Shown here: in pieces, positions 8,737 through 38,468 of the stretch
How the letters are laid out: each line of letters opens with the position of its first letter
Numbering within the stretch: the first letter of the stretch is position 1
The notes under the pieces: generated by a model
Told to the model about the DNA's origin: nothing
The model's input: the letters and a program-made list of their open reading frames with translations, nothing else
Database searches by the model: none
Origin: Nitrososphaerota archaeon
GTDB lineage: Archaea; Thermoproteota; EX4484-205; JAAOZP01
Direction: 5' to 3'
DNA length: 64,000 bases
Assembly: GCA_011605725.1 (NCBI GenBank)
Contig: JAAOZP010000012.1
Span: 74,238 to 138,237 of the forward strand
Position numbers and translations under genes: made by a program

Positions 8737-9492
8737 ATGGGAATAGCGTTGCAGCTCTACTCAGTACGCGAAGACTGCGCTAAGGATTTTGAGGGAACTC
8801 TTAAGGCAGTTGCAGAAATGGGTTACGAGGGGGTTGAGTTCGCAGGATATTACGAGAGAAGCGCTGAAAGCCTTAGAGCAATCCTTGACGATCTTGGTTT
8901 AAAAGTTGCTGGAACACATATAAGTATAGATACTCTGCTCGGCGAAAAGCTTGGTAAGACTGTTGAGTTTAACCGTGTCTTGGAGAACAAGTTTCTAATA
9001 GTTCCAGGCCTGCCTGCTGAAATGCTGAGTTCGAAAAAAAGTTGTCTTGAGACAGCCAATCTTTTCAACGAAATCGCTAGAAAGCTCAGGAAGGAAGGGA
9101 TGAGGGTCGGCTATCACAACCATATGATGGAGTTCAAAACTGTTAACGGTGAGAGAATATGGGACTTGTTCTTCGGCTCCACCATCCCCGAGGTAGTGAT
9201 GCAGCTCGACACGGGGAACGCGATGCATGGAGGAGTTGATGCAGAGGGCATTTTGGAGATAATTCGGAAATACCCAGGCAGGGCATTAACCGTGCACGTT
9301 AAAGAGTATTCCTCTAAAAATCCAAAGGCAGTGGTTGGAGAAGGAGAAATGAAGTGGCGTGAATTCTTCGAGCTGTGTAAAACAACGGGTGGAACCGAAT
9401 GGTATATTGTTGAGCAGGAGAGCTACGCCTATCCGCCTCTAGAATGCGTGAAGCGCTGCCTGGAGAACCTTAGAAGAATGAGGCTCGTGTAA
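8737..9492 (+). CDS. Sugar phosphate isomerase/epimerase (xylose isomerase-like TIM barrel)
   Basis: 251 aa; LQLYSVRED...GYEGVEFAGY and later HNH/E-rich metal-site pattern typical of the family. Confidence 0.7.
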   Translation: MGIALQLYSVREDCAKDFEGTLKAVAEMGYEGVEFAGYYERSAESLRAILDDLGLKVAGTHISIDTLLGEKLGKTVEFNRVLENKFLIVPGLPAEMLSSKKSCLETANLFNEIARKLRKEGMRVGYHNHMMEFKTVNGERIWDLFFGSTIPEVVMQLDTGNAMHGGVDAEGILEIIRKYPGRALTVHVKEYSSKNPKAVVGEGEMKWREFFELCKTTGGTEWYIVEQESYAYPPLECVKRCLENLRRMRLV

Positions 9493-9623
9493 GACTGTCT
9501 TAGATACCAGTTTTCAAATCATTTTTAAAAGACTAAATCAACCGTCTTAGTATATTAAAAGAAACAATTAAAATGCTAAAATTTAAAAAGACACGATTAA
9601 CTTAAAACCTTAGAAAATTGGAA

Positions 9624-9628
9624 GGAGG
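9624..9628 (+). promoter_or_regulatory. Shine-Dalgarno-like ribosome-binding site (GGAGG) 9 nt upstream of the ATG at 9638; AT-rich putative promoter region 9493-9620
   Basis: Sequence gaaGGAGGagtgaacagATG read directly. Confidence 0.4.
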
Positions 9629-9637
9629 AGTGAACAG

Positions 9638-10426
9638 ATGAAAATAATGTACGAATTTATTCCTAAAGCAAACTTTTTAGATTTAGCTGAAGAAATAAAG
9701 GATTTAGTAGATGGCTTTAACATCACGGATAGTGCAGGAGGAATACCTGCCCCCAGTGCTACTGCAGTAGCCTGTGCGATTAAGATAAAATATCCTCAAA
9801 AAATAATAATCCCCATGCTAATTACTAATTATAAGGGACCTGTTGAAATTGCCGCTGCAGCAAGTGCTTGTGAAGCCTTAGATATTTATGGAATGGTGCC
9901 TGATCCGGGAGATGCTCCTAAATACGGATATCCGATAAGGACAAGAAGAGACGGAACCTGTGAAATGCTTTCCGATAAAGAGGAGATTGAAAGATTTAGA
10001 CGTGCAACTGGTCCTGCAGAGGAAGTTAGAGATTTCCTTCGTAATATCGTAAAGATAAAAAAGCTAAAATTAGGCTGTCTTTTAACTAGCCGTAGACCAA
10101 CTGAAGAGGCGGTTGCACGCATAAGAGATGCTTGGGATTTCTGTCTCTTCTTACGCTTAGAAAAGGCTTCTCTACCAAAGTTAAAGGAATTGGCTTTGGA
10201 GTGTAGAAATCTAGGAAAACCCATATATCCCTATTTTGTGGTCGAGACACCTAGAAATAAAAAGATTCTGGAAAGAATCGGATGGCCTTCTACAACAACC
10301 CTGGAAAAAGCAGAAGAATTTTTAGCAGAGCTTCAAGGCGTTGTAGACGGTATAATTTCAACTTGCCTTGGAGACATCGAGGCGGATAAAAAGCTGCTTG
10401 ATAAACTGCAGAAATTTAGGGAATAA
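9638..10426 (+). CDS. Methylenetetrahydrofolate reductase-like protein (short MetF-like)
   Basis: 262 aa; YEFIPKA...FNITDSAGG...MVPDPGD parallels the SFEFFPP / VTDGAGG / LALRGDPP blocks of MTHFR; sits in a folate gene cluster. Confidence 0.55.
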   Translation: MKIMYEFIPKANFLDLAEEIKDLVDGFNITDSAGGIPAPSATAVACAIKIKYPQKIIIPMLITNYKGPVEIAAAASACEALDIYGMVPDPGDAPKYGYPIRTRRDGTCEMLSDKEEIERFRRATGPAEEVRDFLRNIVKIKKLKLGCLLTSRRPTEEAVARIRDAWDFCLFLRLEKASLPKLKELALECRNLGKPIYPYFVVETPRNKKILERIGWPSTTTLEKAEEFLAELQGVVDGIISTCLGDIEADKKLLDKLQKFRE

Positions 10427-10706
10427 AAGGAGAACTTATTTCGTTTACAAGGCGCTTTGAAAGATGAAGCCATACTATTACAATCGAGCGAATAAAAAAT
10501 GCTATAATATTTAATGATTTGATATAGTATGGATACGTGAAAACAATGGTCGATAAGGCTGTTAAAACGCTTAATGCCGGATTTCCATACGTGTGGATGG
10601 AAAGGAACTTGAAGAAGACATATAGAAGTCATTAAAAGACTGATGGCGTAGGGCGTTAATAGCCTCAGAAAGCCTTAAATGTCGGCTATTTGTCATGCAT
10701 GAGAAA

Positions 10707-10711
10707 GGAGG
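10707..10711 (+). promoter_or_regulatory. Shine-Dalgarno-like site (GGAGG) 9 nt upstream of the fhs ATG; TTAAAT TATA-like element at 10675-10680
   Basis: Sequence ccTTAAATgtcggctatttgtcatgcatgagaaaGGAGGcgttgaacaATG read directly. Confidence 0.35.
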
Positions 10712-10720
10712 CGTTGAACA

Positions 10721-12457
10721 ATGCCTGTGAAAAAAAGCTGGCCTGTGCCGAGCGACATTGAAATAGCTTATAAAGCCGAGCTTCATCCAATTAATAAGGT
10801 TGCGGAGGACATTGGGATTCTGGATGAAGAACTTGAGAATTATGGCAAGTATATAGCTAAGGTAGACTATAGGAGCATTCTAAATAGGCTGAAGAATAGG
10901 CCTCGCGGCAAATTGATCATAGTAACTGCAATCACACCTACACCCCTAGGCGAGGGGAAAACAACTGTTTCAATAGGTTTAGGTCAAGCATTCTACGAAA
11001 GGGGTTTTAAAGTTATTAACACTCTGCGCGAACCATCGAAAGGCGTCACCTTCGGAATAAAAGGAGGTGCAACCGGCGGCGGCTACTCTCAAGCCTTACC
11101 TATGGACAGGATTAATCTTAATTTCACTGGAGACATACCAGCAGTAGAAATTGCCCATAACCTTTGTGCAGCAGCTGTAGACGCCAGCATACTTCACGGA
11201 AATCCTTTAAGCATCGACCCCTTATCAATCGAATGGCCCTATTGCATGGATGTTGAAGCTAGGGCTTTAAGACGAGCCGTCATAGGATTGGGGGGAAGGT
11301 CAAACGGCTATCCTAGAGAAGCGCGCTGGAGCATAACTGTAGCGACGGAAACAGCGGCCATTCACGCATTGGCAACTGGGTTGGAAGACTTGAGGAAGAG
11401 GCTGGGAAGAGCCGTCGTCGCCTACACCTATGATAGGAAACCGGTAACGTGTGAAGAGCTTGGAGTAGCAGGAGCAATGGCCGCCCTGCTCGTGGAAGCC
11501 ATTAAACCTAATCTAGTTCAATCTACAGAGGGTCACCCGGTTTTAATCCACGGATTCCCGTTTGCCAACATAGCACACGGAACCAACTCGATCATAGCCG
11601 ATCTAGTAGCTTTGAAGCTTGCGGATTACGTTATCTGCGAAACCGGGTTTGGCTCTGAATGCGGCTTTTCAAAGTTCTGCGACATTGTATGCCGCCAGTC
11701 CCCAGAGATAAGGCCTGACTGCGCCGTCATCGTCTGCACTGTTAGAGCCCTTAAAGAACACGGTGGCGCCTTCATGCTTCGTCCAGGAATGCCCTATAAG
11801 AAAGTTAAGAGGGCTGCGGAAACAGAAAACCTCCAGGCGGTTGAAAAAGGTTGTGAGAATTTAGCTAAACACATAGAAATAGTCCATAAATACGGTATTC
11901 CAGCCGTAGTAGCCATTAACAGGTTTATCACAGACAGCGAGAGGGAGATAAGGCTTGTGTGCGAAAAAGCCGTCGAGGCTGGTGCTGATGAGGTTGCAGT
12001 TGTAGACCCCTGGTCTAAAGGAGGAGAGGGCTGCCAAGAACTTGTTGACAAGGTTCTCGAAGTAATGAAGAAGCCTCGTGAACTGAAGTTTCTTTACCCC
12101 GATAAAGCCACCATCAAGGAGAAGATAGAGAAAATAGCTACTGAGCTCTATGGAGCCGGCGACGTGAAATATTCTCCTGAAGCAGAGGAAAAGATAGAGT
12201 TTTACACCAGCCTAGGGTACGATGGGCTTCCGGTAAACATGGCTAAAACACCCCTCTCCCTTTCGCACGACCCTCTCTTGAAAAACGTGCCTAAGAACTA
12301 TACGTTTCCAGTCAACGATATTTTCGTCTTCGTTGGAGCCGGCTTCCTCATACCGATATGCGGCGAAATACAGCTTATGCCCGGCCTCCCGAGAAAACCG
12401 GCTTTCCTAGGAATTGACGTGGACACGGAAACTGGAAGGATAAGAGGCCTCTTCTAA
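10721..12457 (+). CDS. fhs: Formate--tetrahydrofolate ligase (formyltetrahydrofolate synthetase)
   Basis: 578 aa; diagnostic PTPLGEGKTTVSIGL nucleotide-binding motif and full-length similarity pattern. Confidence 0.95.
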   Translation: MPVKKSWPVPSDIEIAYKAELHPINKVAEDIGILDEELENYGKYIAKVDYRSILNRLKNRPRGKLIIVTAITPTPLGEGKTTVSIGLGQAFYERGFKVINTLREPSKGVTFGIKGGATGGGYSQALPMDRINLNFTGDIPAVEIAHNLCAAAVDASILHGNPLSIDPLSIEWPYCMDVEARALRRAVIGLGGRSNGYPREARWSITVATETAAIHALATGLEDLRKRLGRAVVAYTYDRKPVTCEELGVAGAMAALLVEAIKPNLVQSTEGHPVLIHGFPFANIAHGTNSIIADLVALKLADYVICETGFGSECGFSKFCDIVCRQSPEIRPDCAVIVCTVRALKEHGGAFMLRPGMPYKKVKRAAETENLQAVEKGCENLAKHIEIVHKYGIPAVVAINRFITDSEREIRLVCEKAVEAGADEVAVVDPWSKGGEGCQELVDKVLEVMKKPRELKFLYPDKATIKEKIEKIATELYGAGDVKYSPEAEEKIEFYTSLGYDGLPVNMAKTPLSLSHDPLLKNVPKNYTFPVNDIFVFVGAGFLIPICGEIQLMPGLPRKPAFLGIDVDTETGRIRGLF

Positions 12458-28315: not shown

Positions 28316-28716
28316 CGCCTACCAATCCTTGAAACCATTACCCCGACCACGACGATTATTATGAGGGATATGCTCAGGTTCAGCGGCAGGTTTCCGGTGA
28401 GAAGTGTTAGTAAGAGTGAGAAACCGAGGCAGCACATCACTAGTCCCCAAATAAGGTAATACTTAAAGTCGGCAGCGTAAATCGAGAAGAAAATAGTGTA
28501 GAACCCAAGCATGATGAGCGGCAGTGAAACTAGAGTAAGCGGTTCACCGTAGCCTGTTGAAAACAGTATGCCGTCTACGCCTATTGAGACTAGCAGGACA
28601 GCCAGCGCGTAGCTCCCATACCCGGCTTTTCTACTCATCTCATTAGCCTCACAACCACAAGGCGAGCTTTGAATATATAACTTTTCCCTCATCTTCGTCA
28701 AGGATTGAAGGGACAT
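28312..28716 (-). CDS. Small polytopic membrane protein
   Basis: 134 aa (or ~108 aa from an internal Met) with 3-4 hydrophobic helices; start shares one nucleotide with the ATPase stop (TAATG). Confidence 0.4.
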   Translation of the reverse strand: MSLQSLTKMREKLYIQSSPCGCEANEMSRKAGYGSYALAVLLVSIGVDGILFSTGYGEPLTLVSLPLIMLGFYTIFFSIYAADFKYYLIWGLVMCCLGFSLLLTLLTGNLPLNLSISLIIIVVVGVMVSRIGRR

Positions 28717-29996
28717 TACGCACCTCGCCTCAATTTCCTCGTTATGCTTGCCAATTCTTCTGGGCCAAGCTCCTCGTGAGAACCCGACACTCTGGGAGGC
28801 TTCTCGCTGAGACTTATGAGCCCTGCCCTCGGTATTCCTTGGGAATGAATTAGTTCTATAGATCTCCTAGCTTCACTCTCGCTGATCTCCCCTATCTTAA
28901 CTTCATACCCTATCATCGGGGCCCTGCCCTTCGAATCCAAGATGACTATATCCACATCCCCCTTCCCCCCAGGCAGAATCATGTAGCTCCTCACCCCTCC
29001 TAGATACTCGGCAAGCATCTCCCCCAGGCTAAACTGTAGCTCCCTACCCAACACGCTTAGAATAATGCCTTCATCTATTTTTACGCGCGGCGATTCGCTG
29101 ATGTTCAGCTTCTGGTCAAGATAATAGACTAGCGAGAGCAGGGGAGACCTGTGCTTGAAATAGTTCCTCGAACCCCTGGTTTTCCATAGCGGGATTTTCT
29201 CTAGAATCCCCATGCAGGTAAGCCTTTCAAGCAAACCGGTTACTGTTGGAAGGCCGCCAGATATCAGGTTGTTCGCGGTTAAAACCCCTGAGATCTCCGC
29301 TGGCATCCATATGCCTCCTCCCACTATCCTGATGACCGCGTCGTAAACCCTTGTTAACATCCTCTCCTCCTCCTCAAAAACCTCTCCGACAAGCCCAGGT
29401 GCTGACGCAACGAAGTATTGAATCTTATTGCGGATTTCTGAAAAAACATCCTTTTCGAATGAGACCATAGGGATCACCCATGGGTCTCGGACAATCAGCC
29501 CCCATAGTAAGGCGTTCCTGAGGGAAGAACATATCTTACTGAGAGAGAGAACAGCGTCAGAGTAGCTTATCAAGTCCACCTTGAATGGCGAGAACAAGCC
29601 TAGGAGAGGACTCTTTCTCTCGAAAACCCTTCTCACGATGCTGAGGCTCGAACCGCTTGCAACCAGCCTTCCGTTCGGATGGTTCGCGGCAATCGAGTCC
29701 CAATACTTATCTGGCAACCTTTGAAACTCATCCAATAGGACAACCCTTCCATCCCTCAAGAGGTTTCCGATACGTCTAACCGCCTCCTCAGGATTAACAT
29801 GTGAAAAACCGTTTTCATCCCAAGCGGCAACGCTGCCAGACCTGGTCACCATAAAGTAGTTAGACTGGGTGAAAACCCTTTTTAGCAGGAAGGTCTTCCC
29901 GGTTTTCCGCCTCCCGTAAACCAGTATCCATCCTCTTAGACCTCTTAATTCGTCTTCCTCTCTCCTGCTTACTACGATATGAGGAATATTCTCCAT
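28716..29996 (-). CDS. Archaeal-type AAA+ ATPase with C-terminal DUF234-like domain
   Basis: 426 aa; Walker A GRRKTGKT, Walker B VVLLDEF; architecture resembles the PF01637 archaeal ATPase plus DUF234 C-terminus. Confidence 0.65.
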   Translation of the reverse strand: MENIPHIVVSRREEDELRGLRGWILVYGRRKTGKTFLLKRVFTQSNYFMVTRSGSVAAWDENGFSHVNPEEAVRRIGNLLRDGRVVLLDEFQRLPDKYWDSIAANHPNGRLVASGSSLSIVRRVFERKSPLLGLFSPFKVDLISYSDAVLSLSKICSSLRNALLWGLIVRDPWVIPMVSFEKDVFSEIRNKIQYFVASAPGLVGEVFEEEERMLTRVYDAVIRIVGGGIWMPAEISGVLTANNLISGGLPTVTGLLERLTCMGILEKIPLWKTRGSRNYFKHRSPLLSLVYYLDQKLNISESPRVKIDEGIILSVLGRELQFSLGEMLAEYLGGVRSYMILPGGKGDVDIVILDSKGRAPMIGYEVKIGEISESEARRSIELIHSQGIPRAGLISLSEKPPRVSGSHEELGPEELASITRKLRRGA

Positions 29997-30094: not shown

Positions 30095-31249
30095 CTATTG
30101 GAGCTTTGCACCACAATTGAGGCAGAACTTTGAACCCTCAGGCACCGTGGACCCGCATTTCGGACAGTTAACACTCTGAGGCTGCAACTGAGCCCCACAG
30201 TTCATGCAGAACTTTGCGCCAGCAGGGTTCTGCGTTCCGCATTTCGGACAATTCACCGTGGCCTGCATGGGTGCACCGCAGCTCATACAGAATTTAGCTG
30301 TGCTCGGGTTCTGCGCCCCGCATTTAGGGCACGCTACTGTTCCTGCTGGAGGCGCGGCAGGTGGCTGCGCCGGCGGCGGAGGTGCTTGGATGGCTGCGCC
30401 GCAGGACGGGCAGAACTTGCTTGTAGAGGGTACTTGAGCTTTGCAGCTTGGACATATGACCATTGGTGCTGCGGCAGCCTGCTGCATTAGCTGGGGCACC
30501 AGAACTATTCCTGTTCCAGCCGCCGCCCCGGGCGACTTGCTTAGGGACTCGGCGACGCTCTTAGTCGTGTCCATCGCCATGACTTGTGTCGCAGCGCCGC
30601 CGGTCTGCTTTATCCAGAACAGCCTATCCCTGTACTCCGGCGTGGTGTCGACGCCCTCAAACTTTAGGTCTATGACGTCTACGCCGACGCGCTTAAACTC
30701 CTCGTCTATCGTTGCCTTAACCTTGAACGAAACCTCCTCAAGCTTTGTGAAGACCGTCACAAGGTCGTATTTCGAGAGCTGCGTTATCAGCCTCTCGTTC
30801 ATGAAGCCCCGTAGAAAGCTGTTTACGGATTCGGTGGTGTAGGCGCTCTGCCCTCCCACGACCTCCATTACGAACGTCTTTGGGTCTCCAACTTTAAACC
30901 AGAATGCCCCGTAGAACTTCAGGGGTGCGAGCTCAACCGTCTGCCCGCTGGCTCCGAACAATCCTTTAAACTGCTTCGTGGAGACGAATATGACTGTGGC
31001 TTTGAAAGGCGTGGTTTCGAAGCCAGCCACCCTTGTTAAGACGCCTGTGAGCAGCGGAAGGTTCATCGTTGTTAAAGTATGTCTGCCAGGCCCGAAGACA
31101 TCGTAGGCTTTGCCGTCCCTGAAGAATATTGCAGCCTCATACTCGTGGACGATCAGCTGAGCACCCCAGGTTATCTCCTCCTTAGGGTATCTCCAGACGA
31201 TGTCTTCAGCCGAGGCCCCTACCCACTCTATTATCTGAGGCATCTTCAA
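30095..31249 (-). CDS. SPFH (stomatin/prohibitin-like) domain protein with four tandem C-terminal zinc ribbons
   Basis: 384 aa; N-terminal ~250 aa SPFH-like; C-terminus carries four CPxCG-x7-KFCxxCGA units separated by a Pro-rich linker. Confidence 0.6.
   Translation of the reverse strand: MKMPQIIEWVGASAEDIVWRYPKEEITWGAQLIVHEYEAAIFFRDGKAYDVFGPGRHTLTTMNLPLLTGVLTRVAGFETTPFKATVIFVSTKQFKGLFGASGQTVELAPLKFYGAFWFKVGDPKTFVMEVVGGQSAYTTESVNSFLRGFMNERLITQLSKYDLVTVFTKLEEVSFKVKATIDEEFKRVGVDVIDLKFEGVDTTPEYRDRLFWIKQTGGAATQVMAMDTTKSVAESLSKSPGAAAGTGIVLVPQLMQQAAAAPMVICPSCKAQVPSTSKFCPSCGAAIQAPPPPAQPPAAPPAGTVACPKCGAQNPSTAKFCMSCGAPMQATVNCPKCGTQNPAGAKFCMNCGAQLQPQSVNCPKCGSTVPEGSKFCLNCGAKLQ
30098..30460 (-). repeat. 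In-frame tandem coding repeats (four ~75 nt units) encoding the zinc-ribbon modules of the SPFH protein
   Basis: Repeated ccgcatttcggaca / ccgcatttagggca-type units read on the plus strand; all inside the CDS. Confidence 0.6.
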
Positions 31250-34974: not shown

Positions 34975-36813
34975 CTAGCCTATAAGATTTATCTTCTTCA
35001 GAAGCTCCAGGGAGACTTCTCGCGTTAGGCTTTCCGGCCTGGAGAGGCTTCTGAAGGCTTGTGAAACATAGAGTAGCGTTGAAACGTCTTCATCGTTTAA
35101 AACACGTATCTTAACGTTTCCAAGTGACTCCAGGGCTTTCTGGAGCTCCGGGCTGACTGGGCTTGTAGTCAGCATCACAATCCTGTCGAGCTTCCTGCTT
35201 CTCGCGAAATCTATAAGCGGCTCAATACTGCTTCTTTTAAGCCCTTCAGAAGGCTTTGGCGCTTTAATCATCACTCCAACCTGGACACCTCCGCTTGACG
35301 TATCTGTGAAAAGAAGGTCTATCTCCCTCTTCCTGGTTAAGGATACGCTTATCCTCTTCCTGCCTATGAGGCTCTGTTTACCGAGAGCTGTTTCAATAAG
35401 GCTTGAAACAGCTTTTTCCAGCAGGATCGCCCTCTCAGAGGATTTTTCAATATTGTAGAACCTTGTGATTATCTGACTTTTAACATCGCTGTCAGGTGTA
35501 ACTGGAGTCACGGCCCTGGCGGCGGGCAGACCCATTTTCATAACGGCCTCCATAGCTATCACGGTGTCAACGTAGTCTGGCTGAGTAATGCCCCTTTCAA
35601 GTCTTTCAGCAAGTATCTCGATGCATGCGAAACACTCCGACAGCAGCCTCCTGATCTCCCCACCCGAGTTCGCCCAGAGGAGTTTAACACTATTCATTGG
35701 AAACAGGTTTGAATATGCTCCCTCATCCTTACCAAGGTAGAGGGCCTTCACATACCTGTCGATTATATCCTTGGCTTCTTCCACACTTATCTTCTCAAGG
35801 CTTATCGGGGTTGAGGAGACCCTGCTTACAATGGCCGGAGCCACTCTGAACCTCTGTCCCTTCAGCTCTTCAAACATAACTGGCGTTAGAAGCAGGAGTA
35901 TGAATAATCCACCAGGACCATTATCCACAATCCTCTTCAAAGTATGGAAGAAAACGTCAATATTATCATGCACAAGCGTCTCAACCTCGTCCACAACGAT
36001 TACGAAAGGAGCGTTGCTGACAAGCTTCGACAGATTCACCAGCGTCGTCAAGAATTTTAAAGCATTCTCGTCTGACTCCTTCAAGTAATCGCTCGAATGC
36101 TTAGCACCCCAGCTCCCATAGTATGGACTCGGAAGCCACAGTATCCATTTCGCAAGGTTAGGATCGATGAACCTCCTTGTTTTCGAAGGCTCAAATCTCG
36201 TTTCAAAAATTTTCCCAAGTTCTTCAAGCTCAAGCCTTACGAGCCCAGTTATTTCAAGCATTCCTTCCTCGACAAGTTTCCTTACAGCCCTGAAATCGTT
36301 TGAAACCATGTTGAAAGCCTCCCTAGCCTTCTCAGCCTTTTTACCCAGCACCGTTGGAATCAGACCGACGCTAACAGTTCTCTGAAAAAGCTCGTAACCC
36401 ATTCTGGAAATCAACACTTGATGGAGCCTCAGGGAAAGCTCCATTAGAAATTCTTCGCTGCCGAGTGTCTCCACGACTTTTGATGCGAAGAAGATTAAGG
36501 ACGGTTTGTAAACAGAGTCTTGAATAGTCGGCATGTAGGAGAAAGGCTGACCCGGTTTCTCCTGGCTCAGAAGATATTGCAGGTGGAGGGCGAGGTGCGT
36601 CTTCCCGCTTCCAGCATCCCCTATAAGCATATCGATCTTTGGCTCTTCAAGCTTGAAAGAATAGTCGATCTCCTCCCTGATTCTTTTCAACGCCCTTATC
36701 CTGGACTCGCCGCCAAGTATCCAGATTCTACTTGGAACAGGAGTCAGTGGAAAAGGGTTGGCTTCAAGCATAAGACGGGAATACTTATTTGACGATTGCA
36801 TAATGGTAGACAC
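34975..36813 (-). CDS. P-loop NTPase with C-terminal PD-(D/E)xK-like (restriction-endonuclease-fold) domain
   Basis: 612 aa; Walker A GDAGSGKT, Walker B FVIVVDEVE; C-terminal EIDLLFTD...VQVGVMIKA resembles a D...(E/Q)xK nuclease core; likely starts at an internal Met (about 36771). Confidence 0.5.
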   Translation of the reverse strand: MSTIMQSSNKYSRLMLEANPFPLTPVPSRIWILGGESRIRALKRIREEIDYSFKLEEPKIDMLIGDAGSGKTHLALHLQYLLSQEKPGQPFSYMPTIQDSVYKPSLIFFASKVVETLGSEEFLMELSLRLHQVLISRMGYELFQRTVSVGLIPTVLGKKAEKAREAFNMVSNDFRAVRKLVEEGMLEITGLVRLELEELGKIFETRFEPSKTRRFIDPNLAKWILWLPSPYYGSWGAKHSSDYLKESDENALKFLTTLVNLSKLVSNAPFVIVVDEVETLVHDNIDVFFHTLKRIVDNGPGGLFILLLLTPVMFEELKGQRFRVAPAIVSRVSSTPISLEKISVEEAKDIIDRYVKALYLGKDEGAYSNLFPMNSVKLLWANSGGEIRRLLSECFACIEILAERLERGITQPDYVDTVIAMEAVMKMGLPAARAVTPVTPDSDVKSQIITRFYNIEKSSERAILLEKAVSSLIETALGKQSLIGRKRISVSLTRKREIDLLFTDTSSGGVQVGVMIKAPKPSEGLKRSSIEPLIDFARSRKLDRIVMLTTSPVSPELQKALESLGNVKIRVLNDEDVSTLLYVSQAFRSLSRPESLTREVSLELLKKINLIG

Positions 36814-37294
36814 CTCTAGCCGTCTTCAAACCACTATTCGATTCGCCACTACCTGCATGAAGTTGAACGACATACGGATCACTACTGTTCAACTCTATTA
36901 TCCTCCTGTCGAATTCATCACCACTTATATTTAATTCTTCAGATACTTTAAGCCGGAGATCAGTTATTCTCACATAAGGTGCTATTGGACTAGACCTTAC
37001 CAAGTCGTTATACTTCAGCCTTAAGGTTTCGAGGAAACTTTGAGGCGACAGTTGCTCAGCCTCTTTAAGCCTAGCGTATTTTAAGAAAGGAAGGTTCCAA
37101 ATGCTCTTCATGCAATAGGCCCTGCCAGCCTCAGAAGTCCTATACTTTTTAACGGTCCTAGTCCTCCCCTCAACCGGTTCAAGATACCCTTTTTTAACTA
37201 GTTCTTTAAACTCTTTTTCAGTAAGCCTGCCAGCCTTCTTAACCATTTTCTCCGTGACCCCTTTAGGAGTGTCGGCGAATACAAGTGCAAGCAA
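36785..37294 (-). CDS. Small basic protein, possible winged-helix DNA-binding protein
   Basis: 169 aa Lys/Arg-rich ORF directly upstream of and overlapping the NTPase gene; fold assignment is inference. Confidence 0.35.
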   Translation of the reverse strand: MLALVFADTPKGVTEKMVKKAGRLTEKEFKELVKKGYLEPVEGRTRTVKKYRTSEAGRAYCMKSIWNLPFLKYARLKEAEQLSPQSFLETLRLKYNDLVRSSPIAPYVRITDLRLKVSEELNISGDEFDRRIIELNSSDPYVVQLHAGSGESNSGLKTARGVYHYAIVK

Positions 37295-37459
37295 TTGAAA
37301 CTCGTTCAGCCGGTATCACCTTATTAAAATGGGCTAAAGTAGTTTTTAAAGCTTGCCTGTCGGCCACAGTAAGCCCCATCTCCAGGGTGTTCAGAGGTTT
37401 AGATAAAGTTAAATCCTAATAGGCGAGACGTTTCTACACAGGAAGGCAAACGGTTAGAG

Positions 37460-37924
37460 ATGAGGGTGAAAAGGAAGCGTAAAATGGTTTTTCCCAGAAC
37501 CATGTTTGAATGCAAAGTGTGCGGGAAATGCTGCGTTGAGGATGTTAAGCGTGGTAGACGGATAGTTCTAACCGAGATTGACGCCTTAGAAATATCTAGC
37601 GCTACCGGAATAGGTTTGAACGAGTTCGCGGAGAAAAACAGTAGTGAAGCCTATCCGTACGCTATTAGGCTTGTCAACGGAAGATGCTTCTTCCTTAATC
37701 AGGACAACAAGTGCAGTATTTACCCGGTTAGACCTCTGGTGTGCAGGTTCTACCCTTTCGTAATGCATAAGATTGGAGAGACATACGTGTTTCACGCTGA
37801 CCCTTTCTGTCCAGGACTTGGGGAAGGCACTTATCTTGACGAAGAATATTTCGAAAGGCTTGTCGAGCTGGCTGAGAAGCGTTTAAAAAAGCCTACTGGG
37901 CTGTTCGAGGCGCGCCGCAGTTAG
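37460..37924 (+). CDS. YkgJ-family zinc/iron-chelating (CxxCxxCC) domain protein
   Basis: 154 aa; CKVCGKCC motif plus downstream CRFYPF and FCPG Cys motifs. Confidence 0.55.
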   Translation: MRVKRKRKMVFPRTMFECKVCGKCCVEDVKRGRRIVLTEIDALEISSATGIGLNEFAEKNSSEAYPYAIRLVNGRCFFLNQDNKCSIYPVRPLVCRFYPFVMHKIGETYVFHADPFCPGLGEGTYLDEEYFERLVELAEKRLKKPTGLFEARRS

Positions 37925-38468
37925 GGCACCTGGTCTCACTCTGCGGGAAAACAGTTCCACAATACTTGCATGAAACAGTGGATAGCACGTGCTGAATCTG
38001 GAGAGGCGGGGAAACATGTATTTCGATTGTTTTACTTGTCGCATCAGGCCGCCCTTCTACAGCAGCAACCCCCTTCAGACTCCAGGCTACGACCCTATCT
38101 AGGCTCTTGAAAGAAGGCTGGGCTCCTGGAGGTATTAGGATTTTAAACTGGTAGCTTTGGACAAAACCCTCGGGAACGTGAAGAGGCCCAGCCAACTGTG
38201 GTCTAGCTGAAAATATGACTGCAGAATCCCAGACCTGTTGCTCAACCTCCCTTTTAAGAGAAGCATTGTAAACCCTCCTGGTTCTACGTACCCGCTCAAT
38301 ACATTCAAGCTCGCACCTTATCTCCGTGCAGTCGAACTCTTCCTGAGACTCAACCTGTACTGCGCCCTCCACAGTGTCGCCAAGATAGAAGACCTGTTTA
38401 CTCAGAAACAGAGAGATGTTTACCCTGGGCGGTGTAACCTTATCCCTGAGTTTCTTAAACAGGCTCAC
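37893..38468 (-). CDS. Hypothetical protein with beta-rich N-terminal domain (possibly arrestin/Spo0M-like) and C-terminal zinc ribbon
   Basis: 191 aa; C-terminal CKYCGTVFPQSETRCPNCG zinc ribbon; 3' end overlaps the convergent YkgJ gene by 32 nt. Confidence 0.35.
   Translation of the reverse strand: MSLFKKLRDKVTPPRVNISLFLSKQVFYLGDTVEGAVQVESQEEFDCTEIRCELECIERVRRTRRVYNASLKREVEQQVWDSAVIFSARPQLAGPLHVPEGFVQSYQFKILIPPGAQPSFKSLDRVVAWSLKGVAAVEGRPDATSKTIEIHVSPPLQIQHVLSTVSCKYCGTVFPQSETRCPNCGAPRTAQ

What the first reader, a model, noticed from the sequence alone, without database searches (positions are those of the whole stretch)
34975..37294. Small basic (winged-helix-like) protein plus P-loop NTPase with nuclease-like C-terminus: candidate nucleic-acid-targeting pair
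Seen: the two genes overlap (29 nt from the annotated start, ~15 nt if the NTPase starts at the Met at about 36771). The NTPase has Walker A GDAGSGKT, Walker B FVIVVDEVE and a C-terminal EIDLLFTD...VQVGVMIKA segment resembling a PD-(D/E)xK core. Inference: ATPase-plus-nuclease proteins with a DNA-binding partner are a recurrent layout of defence or DNA-processing modules; the pair sits directly upstream of a housekeeping tRNA methyltransferase operon.
Basis: partly seen in the sequence, partly recalled or inferred. Interest (0 to 1): 0.55.

Follow-up and report, generated by a model that had tools for sequence, protein, structure and literature searches.

The report
Winged-helix protein plus ATPase–dead-nuclease pair
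Two overlapping archaeal genes encode a double winged-helix DNA-binding protein and a BREX-type ATPase fused to a restriction-nuclease-like domain that has lost a key catalytic residue; the pair looks like a former DNA-restriction module that has become a fixed, slowly evolving chromosomal gene pair, not an active defence island.

Summary

The defence reading is only partly supported. Distant relatives carry the canonical D…ExK motif. All 28 sequences of this clade (Brockarchaeota-type Thermoproteota) have Met/Ile/Val in place of the Glu, and five have Arg in place of the Lys. The pair sits at one syntenic position among metabolic genes. It evolves more slowly than the adjacent Trm14-like tRNA methyltransferase (dN/dS 0.04–0.10 versus 0.11–0.16).

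The winged-helix partner plus ATPase pairing is much older than this clade. It recurs with a fused, intact nuclease. It also recurs next to an N6/N4 DNA methyltransferase beside type I R-M genes, and in haloarchaeal plasmid DpdA (7-deazaguanine) clusters.

Best reading: a domesticated, nuclease-impaired, ATP-driven DNA-binding or loading complex derived from a restriction/modification-type module. The family is very rare (about 30 clusters among 5.8 billion). It is a new variant of a known kind, of moderate interest.

The parts
36785..37294 (-). Gene for the 169-aa basic tandem winged-helix partner protein (TTG start; stop 36785-36787).
   Evidence: ORF. 21 homologues at 56-99% identity. AF2 model pLDDT 83 with two WH domains. 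pI 9.6.
37097..37294 (-). N-terminal winged-helix domain (aa 1-66), basic (pI 9.9).
   Evidence: Secondary structure. PadR/MarR/Sso10a/Cdt1-type WH hits. pI.
36788..37045 (-). C-terminal winged-helix domain (aa 84-169) carrying the family signature SPIAPYV.I..LR..V...L.I...FD..L..LN...PY.VQL..GSG....G..T.RG..HY.I.K.
   Evidence: Conserved in the partners of relatives whose ATPases are only 20-39% identical. hhalign to the partners of standalone ATPases gives 96% probability, E 2.6e-9 and 3.3e-9. hhalign to the haloarchaeal plasmid partner gives 91%, E 1.1e-6.
34975..36801 (-). Gene for the 608-aa AAA+ ATPase / Mrr-like fusion protein. The ATG at 36801 is supported by homologues; the mechanical ORF start is the GTG at 36813. 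It overlaps the partner gene by 17 nt (29 nt from the GTG).
   Evidence: The same overlap or abutment is seen in relatives L012 (23 nt), L017 (4 nt) and L018 (abutting).
36733..36759 (-). N-terminal NPFPLTPVP motif (aa 19-27) preceding the ATPase core.
   Evidence: Invariant in 28/28 sequences. NPFP is also invariant in the standalone BrxD-like ATPases.
35548..36795 (-). BrxD-type (ORC/Cdc6-clade) AAA+ ATPase module, aa 7-422, with a ~160-aa helical insert between Walker A and Walker B and a helical lid.
36598..36621 (-). Walker A, GDAGSGKT (aa 65-72).
   Evidence: G65, D66, G68, G70, K71 and T72 are invariant in 28/28.
35980..36006 (-). Walker B, FVIVVDEVE (aa 270-278).
   Evidence: D275, E276 and E278 are invariant in 28/28.
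35821..35823 (-). R331 in PAIVSRV, the candidate box VII arginine finger.
   Evidence: Invariant in 28/28 and in 9 of 10 distant relatives. The assignment rests on motif resemblance to Cdc6 box VII and is an inference.
35647..35652 (-). R388-R389 in GGEIRRLL, the candidate sensor-2 arginines in the lid.
   Evidence: Invariant in 28/28. Aligned to G..R.IL in standalone ATPases. The assignment is an inference.
35089..35496 (-). Mrr-type PD-(D/E)xK-fold domain (aa 440-575), basic, with a degenerate active site.
35263..35325 (-). Remnant of the catalytic motif: E497-I-D499 ... V-M515-I-K517. D499 is kept; the Glu of ExK is Met.
   Evidence: Position 515 is M6/I19/V3 in the 28 clade members and E in 7 of 8 outgroup sequences. 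K517 is K23/R5. The ExK of relatives aligns to LEAKCY of AspBHI.
34978..35088 (-). C-terminal helical tail (aa 576-612) with family-wide Y582 and R592.
   Evidence: Y582 and R592 are nearly invariant even in relatives at 20-25% identity.
37343..37352 (-). Conserved GCTTTAAAAA (BRE/TATA-like) in the 165-bp divergent intergenic region upstream of the pair.
   Evidence: Near-invariant (the TTTAAAAA core identical in 9 of 9; G->T in L003) upstream regions whose proteins are only 55-62% identical. The promoter function is an inference.

Best explanation
The locus encodes a two-protein, ATP-driven DNA-binding module.

Components. A tandem winged-helix protein is translationally coupled to a fusion protein. 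The fusion joins a BrxD-type (ORC/Cdc6-clade) AAA+ ATPase to an Mrr-type PD-(D/E)xK domain.

Origin. The WH-partner plus ATPase pairing is an old, reusable unit. Elsewhere it accompanies DNA-acting effectors: a fused Mrr nuclease with an intact D...ExK motif, an N6/N4 DNA methyltransferase cassette beside type I R-M genes, and DpdA 7-deazaguanine clusters on haloarchaeal plasmids.

State in this lineage. In this Brockarchaeota-type lineage the ATPase site is intact. The nuclease's metal-binding Glu has been replaced by Met/Ile/Val, and the Lys is sometimes Arg. The pair is fixed at one chromosomal position and evolves slowly.

Most likely mechanism (inferred). The WH protein binds DNA and docks onto the ATPase. 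ATP binding drives ORC/Cdc6-like assembly on DNA. The basic, catalytically impaired Mrr-like domain acts as a DNA-binding or sensing module rather than a cutter. On this reading the pair is a domesticated former restriction-type module with a chromosomal role such as DNA loading, remodelling, surveillance or regulation, not an active defence nuclease.

Shown: the domain identities, the loss of the active-site residue, the conservation of the pairing, the synteny and the selective constraint. Inferred: complex formation, DNA as the substrate, loss of cleavage, and the cellular role.

For: Active site: E is replaced by M/I/V in 28/28, K by R in 5/28, and D499 is kept. Seven of 8 outgroup sequences have ExK. 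The ExK aligns with the AspBHI catalytic LEAKCY.

ATPase motifs are invariant.

Fixed and constrained: the order CxxCxxCC | partner | ATPase | Trm14-like | 2-hydroxyacid dehydrogenase holds in loci at 68-93% identity. The ATPase is 68-72% identical where the Trm14-like protein is 56-60%. dN/dS is 0.04-0.065 for the ATPase, 0.07-0.10 for the nuclease-like domain, 0.07-0.15 for the partner and 0.11-0.16 for Trm14-like.

No defence or mobile neighbours in the window. No relatives in IMG/VR or PLSDB.

The pairing is ancient. A partner gene lies immediately upstream of the fused relatives at 20-39% identity whose upstream sequence could be read (L012, L014, L017, L018, L019; only L015/L016 lack it). 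It also lies upstream of standalone ATPases in the X-ATPase-Y(+N6_N4 methyltransferase) cassette (hhalign 96%) and in haloarchaeal DpdA clusters.

Analogy from the literature: the ORC/Cdc6-clade ATPase MtsA loads the methyltransferase in MANTIS (10.64898/2026.09.23.753747). BrxD is proposed as a loader for BrxHI (PMC12839542).
Against: Inactivity of the nuclease is inferred from one missing residue. PD-(D/E)xK enzymes sometimes recruit acidic residues from other positions, and the clade-invariant D504, E497 and E531 were not examined in 3D. The N-terminal 100 residues of the ATPase model are low confidence. Whether every genome of the lineage carries exactly one copy was not tested. The cellular role is unknown. 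The close spacing to the Trm14-like gene (18 nt) could mean an RNA-related role instead.
Confidence: 0.45

Rival explanations
1. It is an active defence or restriction system analogous to McrBC or a type IV enzyme. The WH protein recognises foreign, perhaps modified, DNA. The AAA+ motor assembles or translocates. The Mrr-like domain cuts, using a non-canonical active site.
Against: The ExK Glu is absent in all 28 clade members and the Lys is Arg in 5. The pair has a fixed syntenic position and a lower dN/dS than the neighbouring tRNA methyltransferase. There are no defence or mobile genes in 64 kb. No defence-library model covers more than the ATPase core.
Confidence: 0.2
2. The small protein is simply a transcription factor, an autoregulator of this operon or of the divergent CxxCxxCC gene. 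The ATPase-nuclease-like protein works on its own.
For: The N-terminal WH resembles PadR/MarR/Sso10a regulators. The divergent 165-bp promoter region contains strongly conserved blocks.
Against: The partner gene stays immediately upstream, overlapping or abutting, across ATPases as low as 20-27% identical and in two other cassette types. The second WH domain carries a family-specific signature that is more conserved than the DNA-reading N-terminal WH. This pattern fits a stoichiometric subunit better than a regulator. The two roles are not mutually exclusive.
Confidence: 0.15
3. It is a replication-initiation or licensing-like pair: an ORC/Cdc6-clade ATPase with a Cdt1/WhiP-like double winged-helix partner, marking an origin or an integrated replicon.
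Confidence: 0.06
4. The pair acts on RNA together with the adjacent Trm14-like THUMP methyltransferase, for example by delivering or checking tRNA. The nuclease-fold domain would serve as an RNA-binding module.
For: The Trm14-like gene follows 18 nt downstream and is the downstream neighbour in all Brockarchaeota-type loci. Elsewhere the same pairing accompanies nucleic-acid-modifying enzymes, including TGT-family proteins.
Against: The spacing grows to 103-317 nt in relatives, and an opposite-strand peptidase gene is inserted in L004. Fused relatives outside the lineage have no such methyltransferase. The TGT homologue in the plasmids is DpdA, a DNA-modifying enzyme.
Confidence: 0.05

Closest known systems
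BrxD (type 2/6 BREX ATP-binding protein; Pfam PF10923 BrxC_BrxD, NCBIfam NF033438)
   Same: An ORC/Cdc6-clade AAA+ ATPase with a helical insert after strand 2, an arginine finger and a C-terminal helical lid. Homology holds over the full ATPase length through standalone PF10923 members (hhalign 99.8%). BrxD is proposed in the literature to act as a loader for a partner enzyme (PMC12839542).
   Different: The window protein itself scores far below the curated cutoffs (NF033438: 15 bits vs 350; PF10923 not reported). No BREX genes (PglW/X/Y/Z, BrxHI) lie nearby. It carries a fused Mrr-like domain and has a dedicated tandem-WH partner, whereas BrxD is described as a standalone ATPase paired with a helicase.
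Mrr-type PD-(D/E)xK nucleases (Pfam PF04471 Mrr_cat; AF1548 PDB 1y88; the nuclease domains of LlaBIII, MspJI and AspBHI)
   Different: The Glu/Gln of the (E/Q)xK motif is Met here, and Ile or Val in relatives of this clade. The Lys is Arg in some. The window sequence itself is below the Pfam cutoff (14.4 vs 21 bits).
McrBC (AAA+ GTPase McrB with a DNA-reading domain, plus the PD-(D/E)xK nuclease McrC)
   Different: The AAA+ clade differs (ORC/Cdc6/BrxD-like rather than McrB/AAA_5). The nuclease is fused to the motor rather than being a separate subunit. Recognition is supplied in trans by a WH protein. The nuclease site is degenerate here.
Orc1/Cdc6 with Cdt1/WhiP (archaeal and eukaryotic replication initiators)
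   Different: The Orc1/Cdc6 model is not met. The C-terminal WH of Orc1 is replaced by a nuclease fold. No origin features were found. The phyletic distribution is extremely narrow.
ScpB / YceH-type tandem winged-helix proteins
   Same: A two-WH architecture in a protein of ~165 aa. Foldseek top hits are ScpB (E 2.9e-4) and YceH.
   Different: TM-scores are only 0.23-0.31 and there is no sequence similarity. No SMC or kleisin partner is present. The resemblance is architectural only.
MANTIS MtsA/MtsB/MtsC and Dpd DpdA/DpdB (ATPase-assisted DNA modification)
   Same: An ATPase loads or activates a DNA-modifying enzyme: the ORC/Cdc6-clade MtsA with the small MtsB loads the methyltransferase. Sister loci of this family place the WH-partner plus ATPase pairing next to an N6/N4 methyltransferase or DpdA.
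   Different: There is no methyltransferase or transglycosylase in this window's module. No homology to MtsB or DpdB was tested or claimed.

Membership tests
PF10923 BrxC_BrxD / BREX BrxD | Score above the curated family cutoff (PF10923 22.2 bits; NF033438 350 bits) | tested here: not met
   For the window protein, PF10923 is not reported at E<=1, NF033438 scores 15 bits and PADLOC BrxD has E 0.002. The distant fused relative P0054 reaches 31 bits on PF10923.
PF10923 BrxC_BrxD / BREX BrxD | Full-length homology of the ATPase module to bona fide family members | tested here: met
   hhalign of A1 against 12 standalone ATPases gives 99.8%, E 3.9e-30, residues 7-422 aligned to 16-414. 11 of those 12 match PF10923 (E<=0.001, best 55.9 bits vs cutoff 22.2).
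PF10923 BrxC_BrxD / BREX BrxD | Intact Walker A, Walker B, arginine finger and sensor-2 of an ORC/Cdc6-clade AAA+ | tested here: met
   GDAGSGKT, VVDEVE, R331 and R388/R389 are invariant in 28/28. The functional assignment of the arginines is by motif resemblance only.
PF10923 BrxC_BrxD / BREX BrxD | Genomic association with BREX genes (PglX, PglZ, BrxC/PglY, PglW, BrxHI) | tested here: not met
   None is found in the 64-kb window or in 19 related loci.
PF04471 Mrr_cat (PD-(D/E)xK restriction endonuclease) | Score above the Pfam cutoff (21 bits) | tested here: not met
   The window C-terminus scores 14.4 bits, E 0.04. P0025 scores 20.6 bits. The relative P0051 scores 26.4 bits, which passes.
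PF04471 Mrr_cat (PD-(D/E)xK restriction endonuclease) | Restriction-endonuclease-like alpha-beta-beta-beta-alpha-beta fold | tested here: met
PF04471 Mrr_cat (PD-(D/E)xK restriction endonuclease) | Catalytic D ... (E/Q)xK triad | tested here: not met
   D499 is present. Position 515 is Met (M6/I19/V3 in the clade) and K517 is K23/R5. Outgroup relatives have ExK.
Orc1/Cdc6 replication initiator (TIGR02928) | Family model score, plus a C-terminal winged-helix DNA-binding domain | tested here: not met
   TIGR02928 scores 11.6 bits against a cutoff of 181.3. The C-terminus is a nuclease fold, not a WH domain.
ScpB / kite proteins | Tandem WH protein acting with an SMC ATPase and a kleisin | tested here: not met
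   The tandem WH architecture is present, but TM-scores are 0.23-0.26. No SMC or ScpA gene is adjacent, and the partner ATPase is AAA+, not SMC.
Known defence systems in PADLOC (MADS mad8, Shango SngB, BREX, Septu, Gabija and others) | Significant match of every component to a system's models | tested here: not met
   Only the ATPase core matches (mad8 E 2.5e-8 over aa 50-293; BrxD 0.002). The partner has no hit. There are no Septu or Gabija hits.
Variable defence island | Patchy presence, variable neighbours, and co-location with defence or mobile genes | tested here: not met
   The position is syntenic in all 10 or more loci of the lineage. Neighbours are metabolic or housekeeping genes. Outside the lineage the contexts do vary.
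Single-copy core gene of the lineage | Present once in every complete genome of the lineage | not testable with these tools
   Only MAG contigs are available. Seven GTDB species representatives carry it, but the denominator is unknown.

The most novel reading that the evidence does not exclude
The tandem-WH protein plus BrxD-like ATPase is an undescribed, ancient 'loader' pairing that delivers different DNA-acting effectors. These are a fused Mrr nuclease, an N6/N4 methyltransferase cassette with a membrane protein, and DpdA 7-deazaguanine machinery on haloarchaeal plasmids. The Brockarchaeota copy would then be a clear case of such a restriction-type module being disarmed and fixed as a core chromosomal gene pair with a new cellular function. 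The sister cassettes would be new defence or modification systems.
Probability: 0.3. Interest if true: 0.6.

Novelty: new variant of a known kind. Interest (0 to 1): 0.42.

Why it matters
If the reading holds, three things follow. First, the locus documents a defence-type AAA+/nuclease module that lost its cutting residue yet stayed under strong selection at a fixed chromosomal site in a whole archaeal lineage; such exaptation is often proposed and rarely this clear. Second, it defines a conserved partner for BrxD-like ATPases, whose role in BREX is still unknown (PMC12839542), and links that pairing to methyltransferase and DpdA systems. That makes the idea of an ORC-like ATPase acting as an effector loader testable in a simple two-protein system. 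Third, it flags two unannotated cassette types as candidate defence or modification systems. Against this, the family is very rare and confined to uncultured archaea, and no function is demonstrated.

Tried and rejected
- Sequence searches of PDB with profiles of both proteins gave nothing significant. The C-terminal profile gave only a weak AspBHI hit, E 0.31.
- Pfam, NCBIfam and PADLOC on the window proteins gave only sub-threshold ATPase hits and nothing for the partner. PHROGs gave only a weak AAA+ 'DNA transposition protein' hit, E 1.4e-5.
- The search for related loci with the 12-sequence alignment failed because no block was conserved enough. It was repeated with 5 sequences.
- The third homologue search, with the divergent alignment, returned no new distant members.
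- Gene Y, downstream of the standalone ATPases, was tested as a possible split-off nuclease and rejected. hhalign gave 0.1% probability, and Y has a predicted TM helix and no nuclease motif.
- No relatives were found in IMG/VR. The fused protein has no match in PLSDB.
- No tRNA genes and no Rfam families occur in the window.
- No origin-like repeat arrays occur around the locus.
- The ScpB/kite reading was rejected as architectural resemblance only. The Orc1/Cdc6 reading was rejected on model score and on the absence of the C-terminal WH domain.
Full report
**1. Observation**

One is 36785..37294 (169 aa, TTG start). The other is 34975..36813 (612 aa from a GTG). The quoted motifs are all there: GDAGSGKT (aa 65-72), FVIVVDEVE (aa 270-278) and EIDLLFTD...VQVGVMIKA (aa 497-518).

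Most homologues start at MQSSNKY, which is the ATG at 36801. That gives a 17-nt overlap with the stop of the small gene at 36785-36787. The Met at 36771 would leave a 13-nt gap rather than an overlap. It is also unlikely to be the start, because the (K/D)Y..L.L..NPFP motif upstream of it is conserved even in distant standalone ATPases.

The small protein is basic, with pI 9.6. Eighteen nucleotides downstream of the ATPase lies a THUMP+UPF0020 methyltransferase. Its best match is Trm14_Arch at 188.8 bits, below the 280 cutoff. A glyoxylate-reductase-like dehydrogenase follows.

**2. What the proteins are**

*Library searches.* Curated libraries give only sub-threshold ATPase hits for the large protein: AAA_22, NACHT, AAA_16 and KAP from Pfam; PADLOC mad8 at E 2.5e-8 and BrxD at 0.002; NCBIfam BrxD at 15 bits. 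They give nothing for the small protein.

*How rare the family is.* A word-indexed search of 5.8 billion clusters finds only 29 relatives of the ATPase and 21 of the partner. All are from Thermoproteota / 'Candidatus Brockarchaeota' MAGs, at 68-93% and 56-99% identity. Adjacent locus tags show that the pair is kept together. An exhaustive HMMER search of 1.84 billion representatives finds only 48 hits. About six of them are full-length fused relatives: P0051-P0055 and P0089, at 20-39% identity. The rest are ATPases of about 400-470 aa that match only the ATPase part.

**3. The active site**

In the outgroup fused relatives the nuclease motif is canonical: REIDI...G(V/I/L)E(V/I)K(A/T/C)(Y/H). 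The ExK aligns with the catalytic LEAKCY of AspBHI.

In all 28 sequences of the window's clade the Glu position is Met (6), Ile (19) or Val (3). The Lys is Arg in five. D499 is invariant. All the ATPase motifs are also invariant.

Loss of cleavage is an inference, because the geometry of other conserved acidic residues (E497, D504, E531) was not examined.

**4. Context and evolution**

*Synteny.* In every locus of the lineage that was recovered (L001-L011, L013) the order is the same: CxxCxxCC (divergent) | partner | ATPase | Trm14-like | 2-hydroxyacid dehydrogenase. There is one exception, an opposite-strand peptidase gene inserted in L004.

*Rate of change.* The ATPase is 68-72% identical in loci where the Trm14-like protein is 56-60% and CxxCxxCC is 49-60%. 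Against the closest three loci, dN/dS values are as follows:
- ATPase module: 0.04-0.065
- Nuclease-like domain: 0.07-0.10
- Partner: 0.07-0.15
- Trm14-like methyltransferase: 0.11-0.16

*Surroundings.* The other annotated genes of the 64-kb window are metabolic or housekeeping. They include glycerol kinase, FTHFS, folate enzymes, an ADP-forming acyl-CoA synthetase, glycoside hydrolases, an SPFH protein and a radical SAM enzyme. There are no tRNA genes or Rfam hits. No relatives occur in IMG/VR and the fused protein is absent from PLSDB. This is not a variable defence island.

*Outside the lineage.* The fused relatives have different neighbours in each case: PUA/HDAC/VapBC; an EVE-plus-nuclease-like gene; ABC transporter genes; RadA and XPD; HicA and eIF2-gamma. 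This is typical of sporadic accessory genes.

**5. The pairing is older than the fusion**

A gene homologous to the partner lies immediately upstream of every fused relative where upstream sequence could be read, overlapping or abutting it. These are L012, L014, L017, L018 and L019. Only P0054 lacks one. The signature of the second WH domain is conserved throughout.

The standalone PF10923-type ATPases also have an upstream gene X of 259-296 aa that overlaps them. X is homologous to the partner (hhalign 96%, E 2.6e-9 and 3.3e-9). In these loci the ATPase is followed by a gene Y of about 250 aa with a predicted TM helix. Y is not a nuclease. A convergent N6/N4 DNA methyltransferase is often present as well. 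In L020 the cassette lies next to type I hsdR/hsdS genes.

On haloarchaeal plasmids the same pairing lies directly downstream of a DpdA homologue and a second TGT gene. The DpdA homologue scores 279.7 bits on NF041059 against a cutoff of 200. QueD or a queuosine-precursor transporter, and Csa3, are nearby. The partner homology there is 91%, E 1.1e-6.

So the pairing repeatedly accompanies DNA-modifying or DNA-cutting effectors.

**6. Interpretation**

The most economical reading is that the WH partner plus BrxD-like ATPase is an ATP-dependent DNA-targeting or loading unit. This is comparable to the ORC/Cdc6-clade MtsA loading the MANTIS methyltransferase (10.64898/2026.09.23.753747).

In one branch this unit acquired a fused Mrr nuclease, which gives a McrBC-like restriction logic. 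In the Brockarchaeota-type lineage that module lost the catalytic Glu, became fixed at one chromosomal site, and is maintained by strong purifying selection across the ATPase, the nuclease-like domain and the partner. I therefore favour a domesticated, nuclease-impaired DNA-binding or loading complex (confidence 0.45).

The rivals, with my confidence in each, are:
- An active defence nuclease: 0.2.
- A mere transcription factor next to an independent ATPase: 0.15.
- A replication-initiator-like pair: 0.06.
- An RNA or Trm14-linked role: 0.05.

Complex formation, the substrate and the cellular role are all inferred.

**7. Novelty and score**

Both domains belong to known superfamilies, and the architecture has analogues such as McrBC and BrxD with a helicase. 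It does not meet the membership criteria of BrxD proper, of active Mrr_cat nucleases, of Orc1/Cdc6 or of any PADLOC system.

As far as the searched libraries and papers show, three things are undescribed: the dedicated tandem-WH partner, the fusion, and the disarmed and fixed state of the module. I class it as a new variant of a known kind.

Interest is moderate (0.42). The evolutionary story is clean and it gives a handle on BrxD-like ATPases. Against that, the family is very rare, is confined to uncultured archaea, and has no demonstrated function.

Noticed in passing
L020:6225-9911 (also L021, L022, L023:185-3817, L024:5211-8005 and 8971-11032, L025): A recurrent unannotated cassette: X (259-296 aa, homologous to the WH partner), a BrxD-like ATPase (~415 aa), and Y (~250 aa with a predicted TM helix). 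A convergent N6_N4 DNA methyltransferase is often present. In L020 the cassette lies next to type I R-M hsdR/hsdS genes. In L024/L025 two copies sit in one locus. X and Y have no PADLOC hit. This is a candidate new defence or modification system.
   Followed up: partly
L027:1073-7131 (Haloferax alexandrinus plasmid pBNX82-4) and L028:1058-7125 (Natronorubrum aibiense plasmid): Haloarchaeal plasmids carry this gene order: a DpdA homologue (NF041059, 279.7 bits against a cutoff of 200), a second TGT gene, a 298-aa partner-like protein, then a 'BREX system ATP-binding domain-containing protein'. QueD or a queuosine-precursor transporter, and Csa3, flank the cluster. It looks like an archaeal Dpd-like 7-deazaguanine DNA-modification cluster that uses the same WH-partner plus ATPase pairing.
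   Followed up: partly
L014:2017-3003 (-): Divergently next to a fused relative (P0052) lies a 328-aa protein with an N-terminal EVE domain. Its C-terminal segment (...ELDVAW...IAIEIQVEG...) looks like a PD-(D/E)xK motif, suggesting a type IV-like reader-nuclease. It has no PADLOC hit.
   Followed up: no
window 37295-37352 (- strand): The region upstream of the small gene has blocks that are invariant in nine loci despite 55-62% protein identity: GCTTTAAAAA (37343-37352) and GGTGATA..GGCTGAACGAGTT.CAA.TG. An in-frame, invariant CTG at 37307-37309 lies 5 nt after the Shine-Dalgarno-like GGTGAT. The protein may therefore start five codons earlier at a non-canonical CTG, or this block is a regulatory site.
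   Followed up: partly
window 37893-38468 (-) and 37460-37924 (+): A conserved neighbour encodes an Arrestin_N-like domain fused to a C-terminal zinc ribbon (191 aa). Its 3' end overlaps the convergent CxxCxxCC (PF03692) gene by 32 nt. Both genes are syntenic with the pair across the lineage.
   Followed up: no
P0102: A 120-aa fragment labelled 'hypothetical protein, partial [Escherichia coli]', from a 361-bp contig, is 81% identical to the window ATPase. This is probably contamination or mislabelling in a public E. coli assembly.
   Followed up: no
L015:2157-3500 and L016:1-1127: The fused relative P0054 has about 1.3 kb upstream with no ORF longer than 91 aa and no partner gene. It is the only family member seen without a partner. 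Either the partner was lost, or gene calling or the genetic code is unusual there.
   Followed up: no
L004:7429-9177 (-): In one sub-lineage a Peptidase_M56/M48 gene on the opposite strand is inserted between the ATPase and the Trm14-like gene. The ATPase-Trm14 adjacency is therefore not an obligatory operon.
   Followed up: no
window 28716-29996 (-) and 30095-31249 (-): An AAA_14-type ATPase lies here, followed by an SPFH/Band-7 protein with four C-terminal zinc ribbons. The SPFH gene block (with three unannotated genes downstream) is also syntenic in related loci.
   Followed up: no
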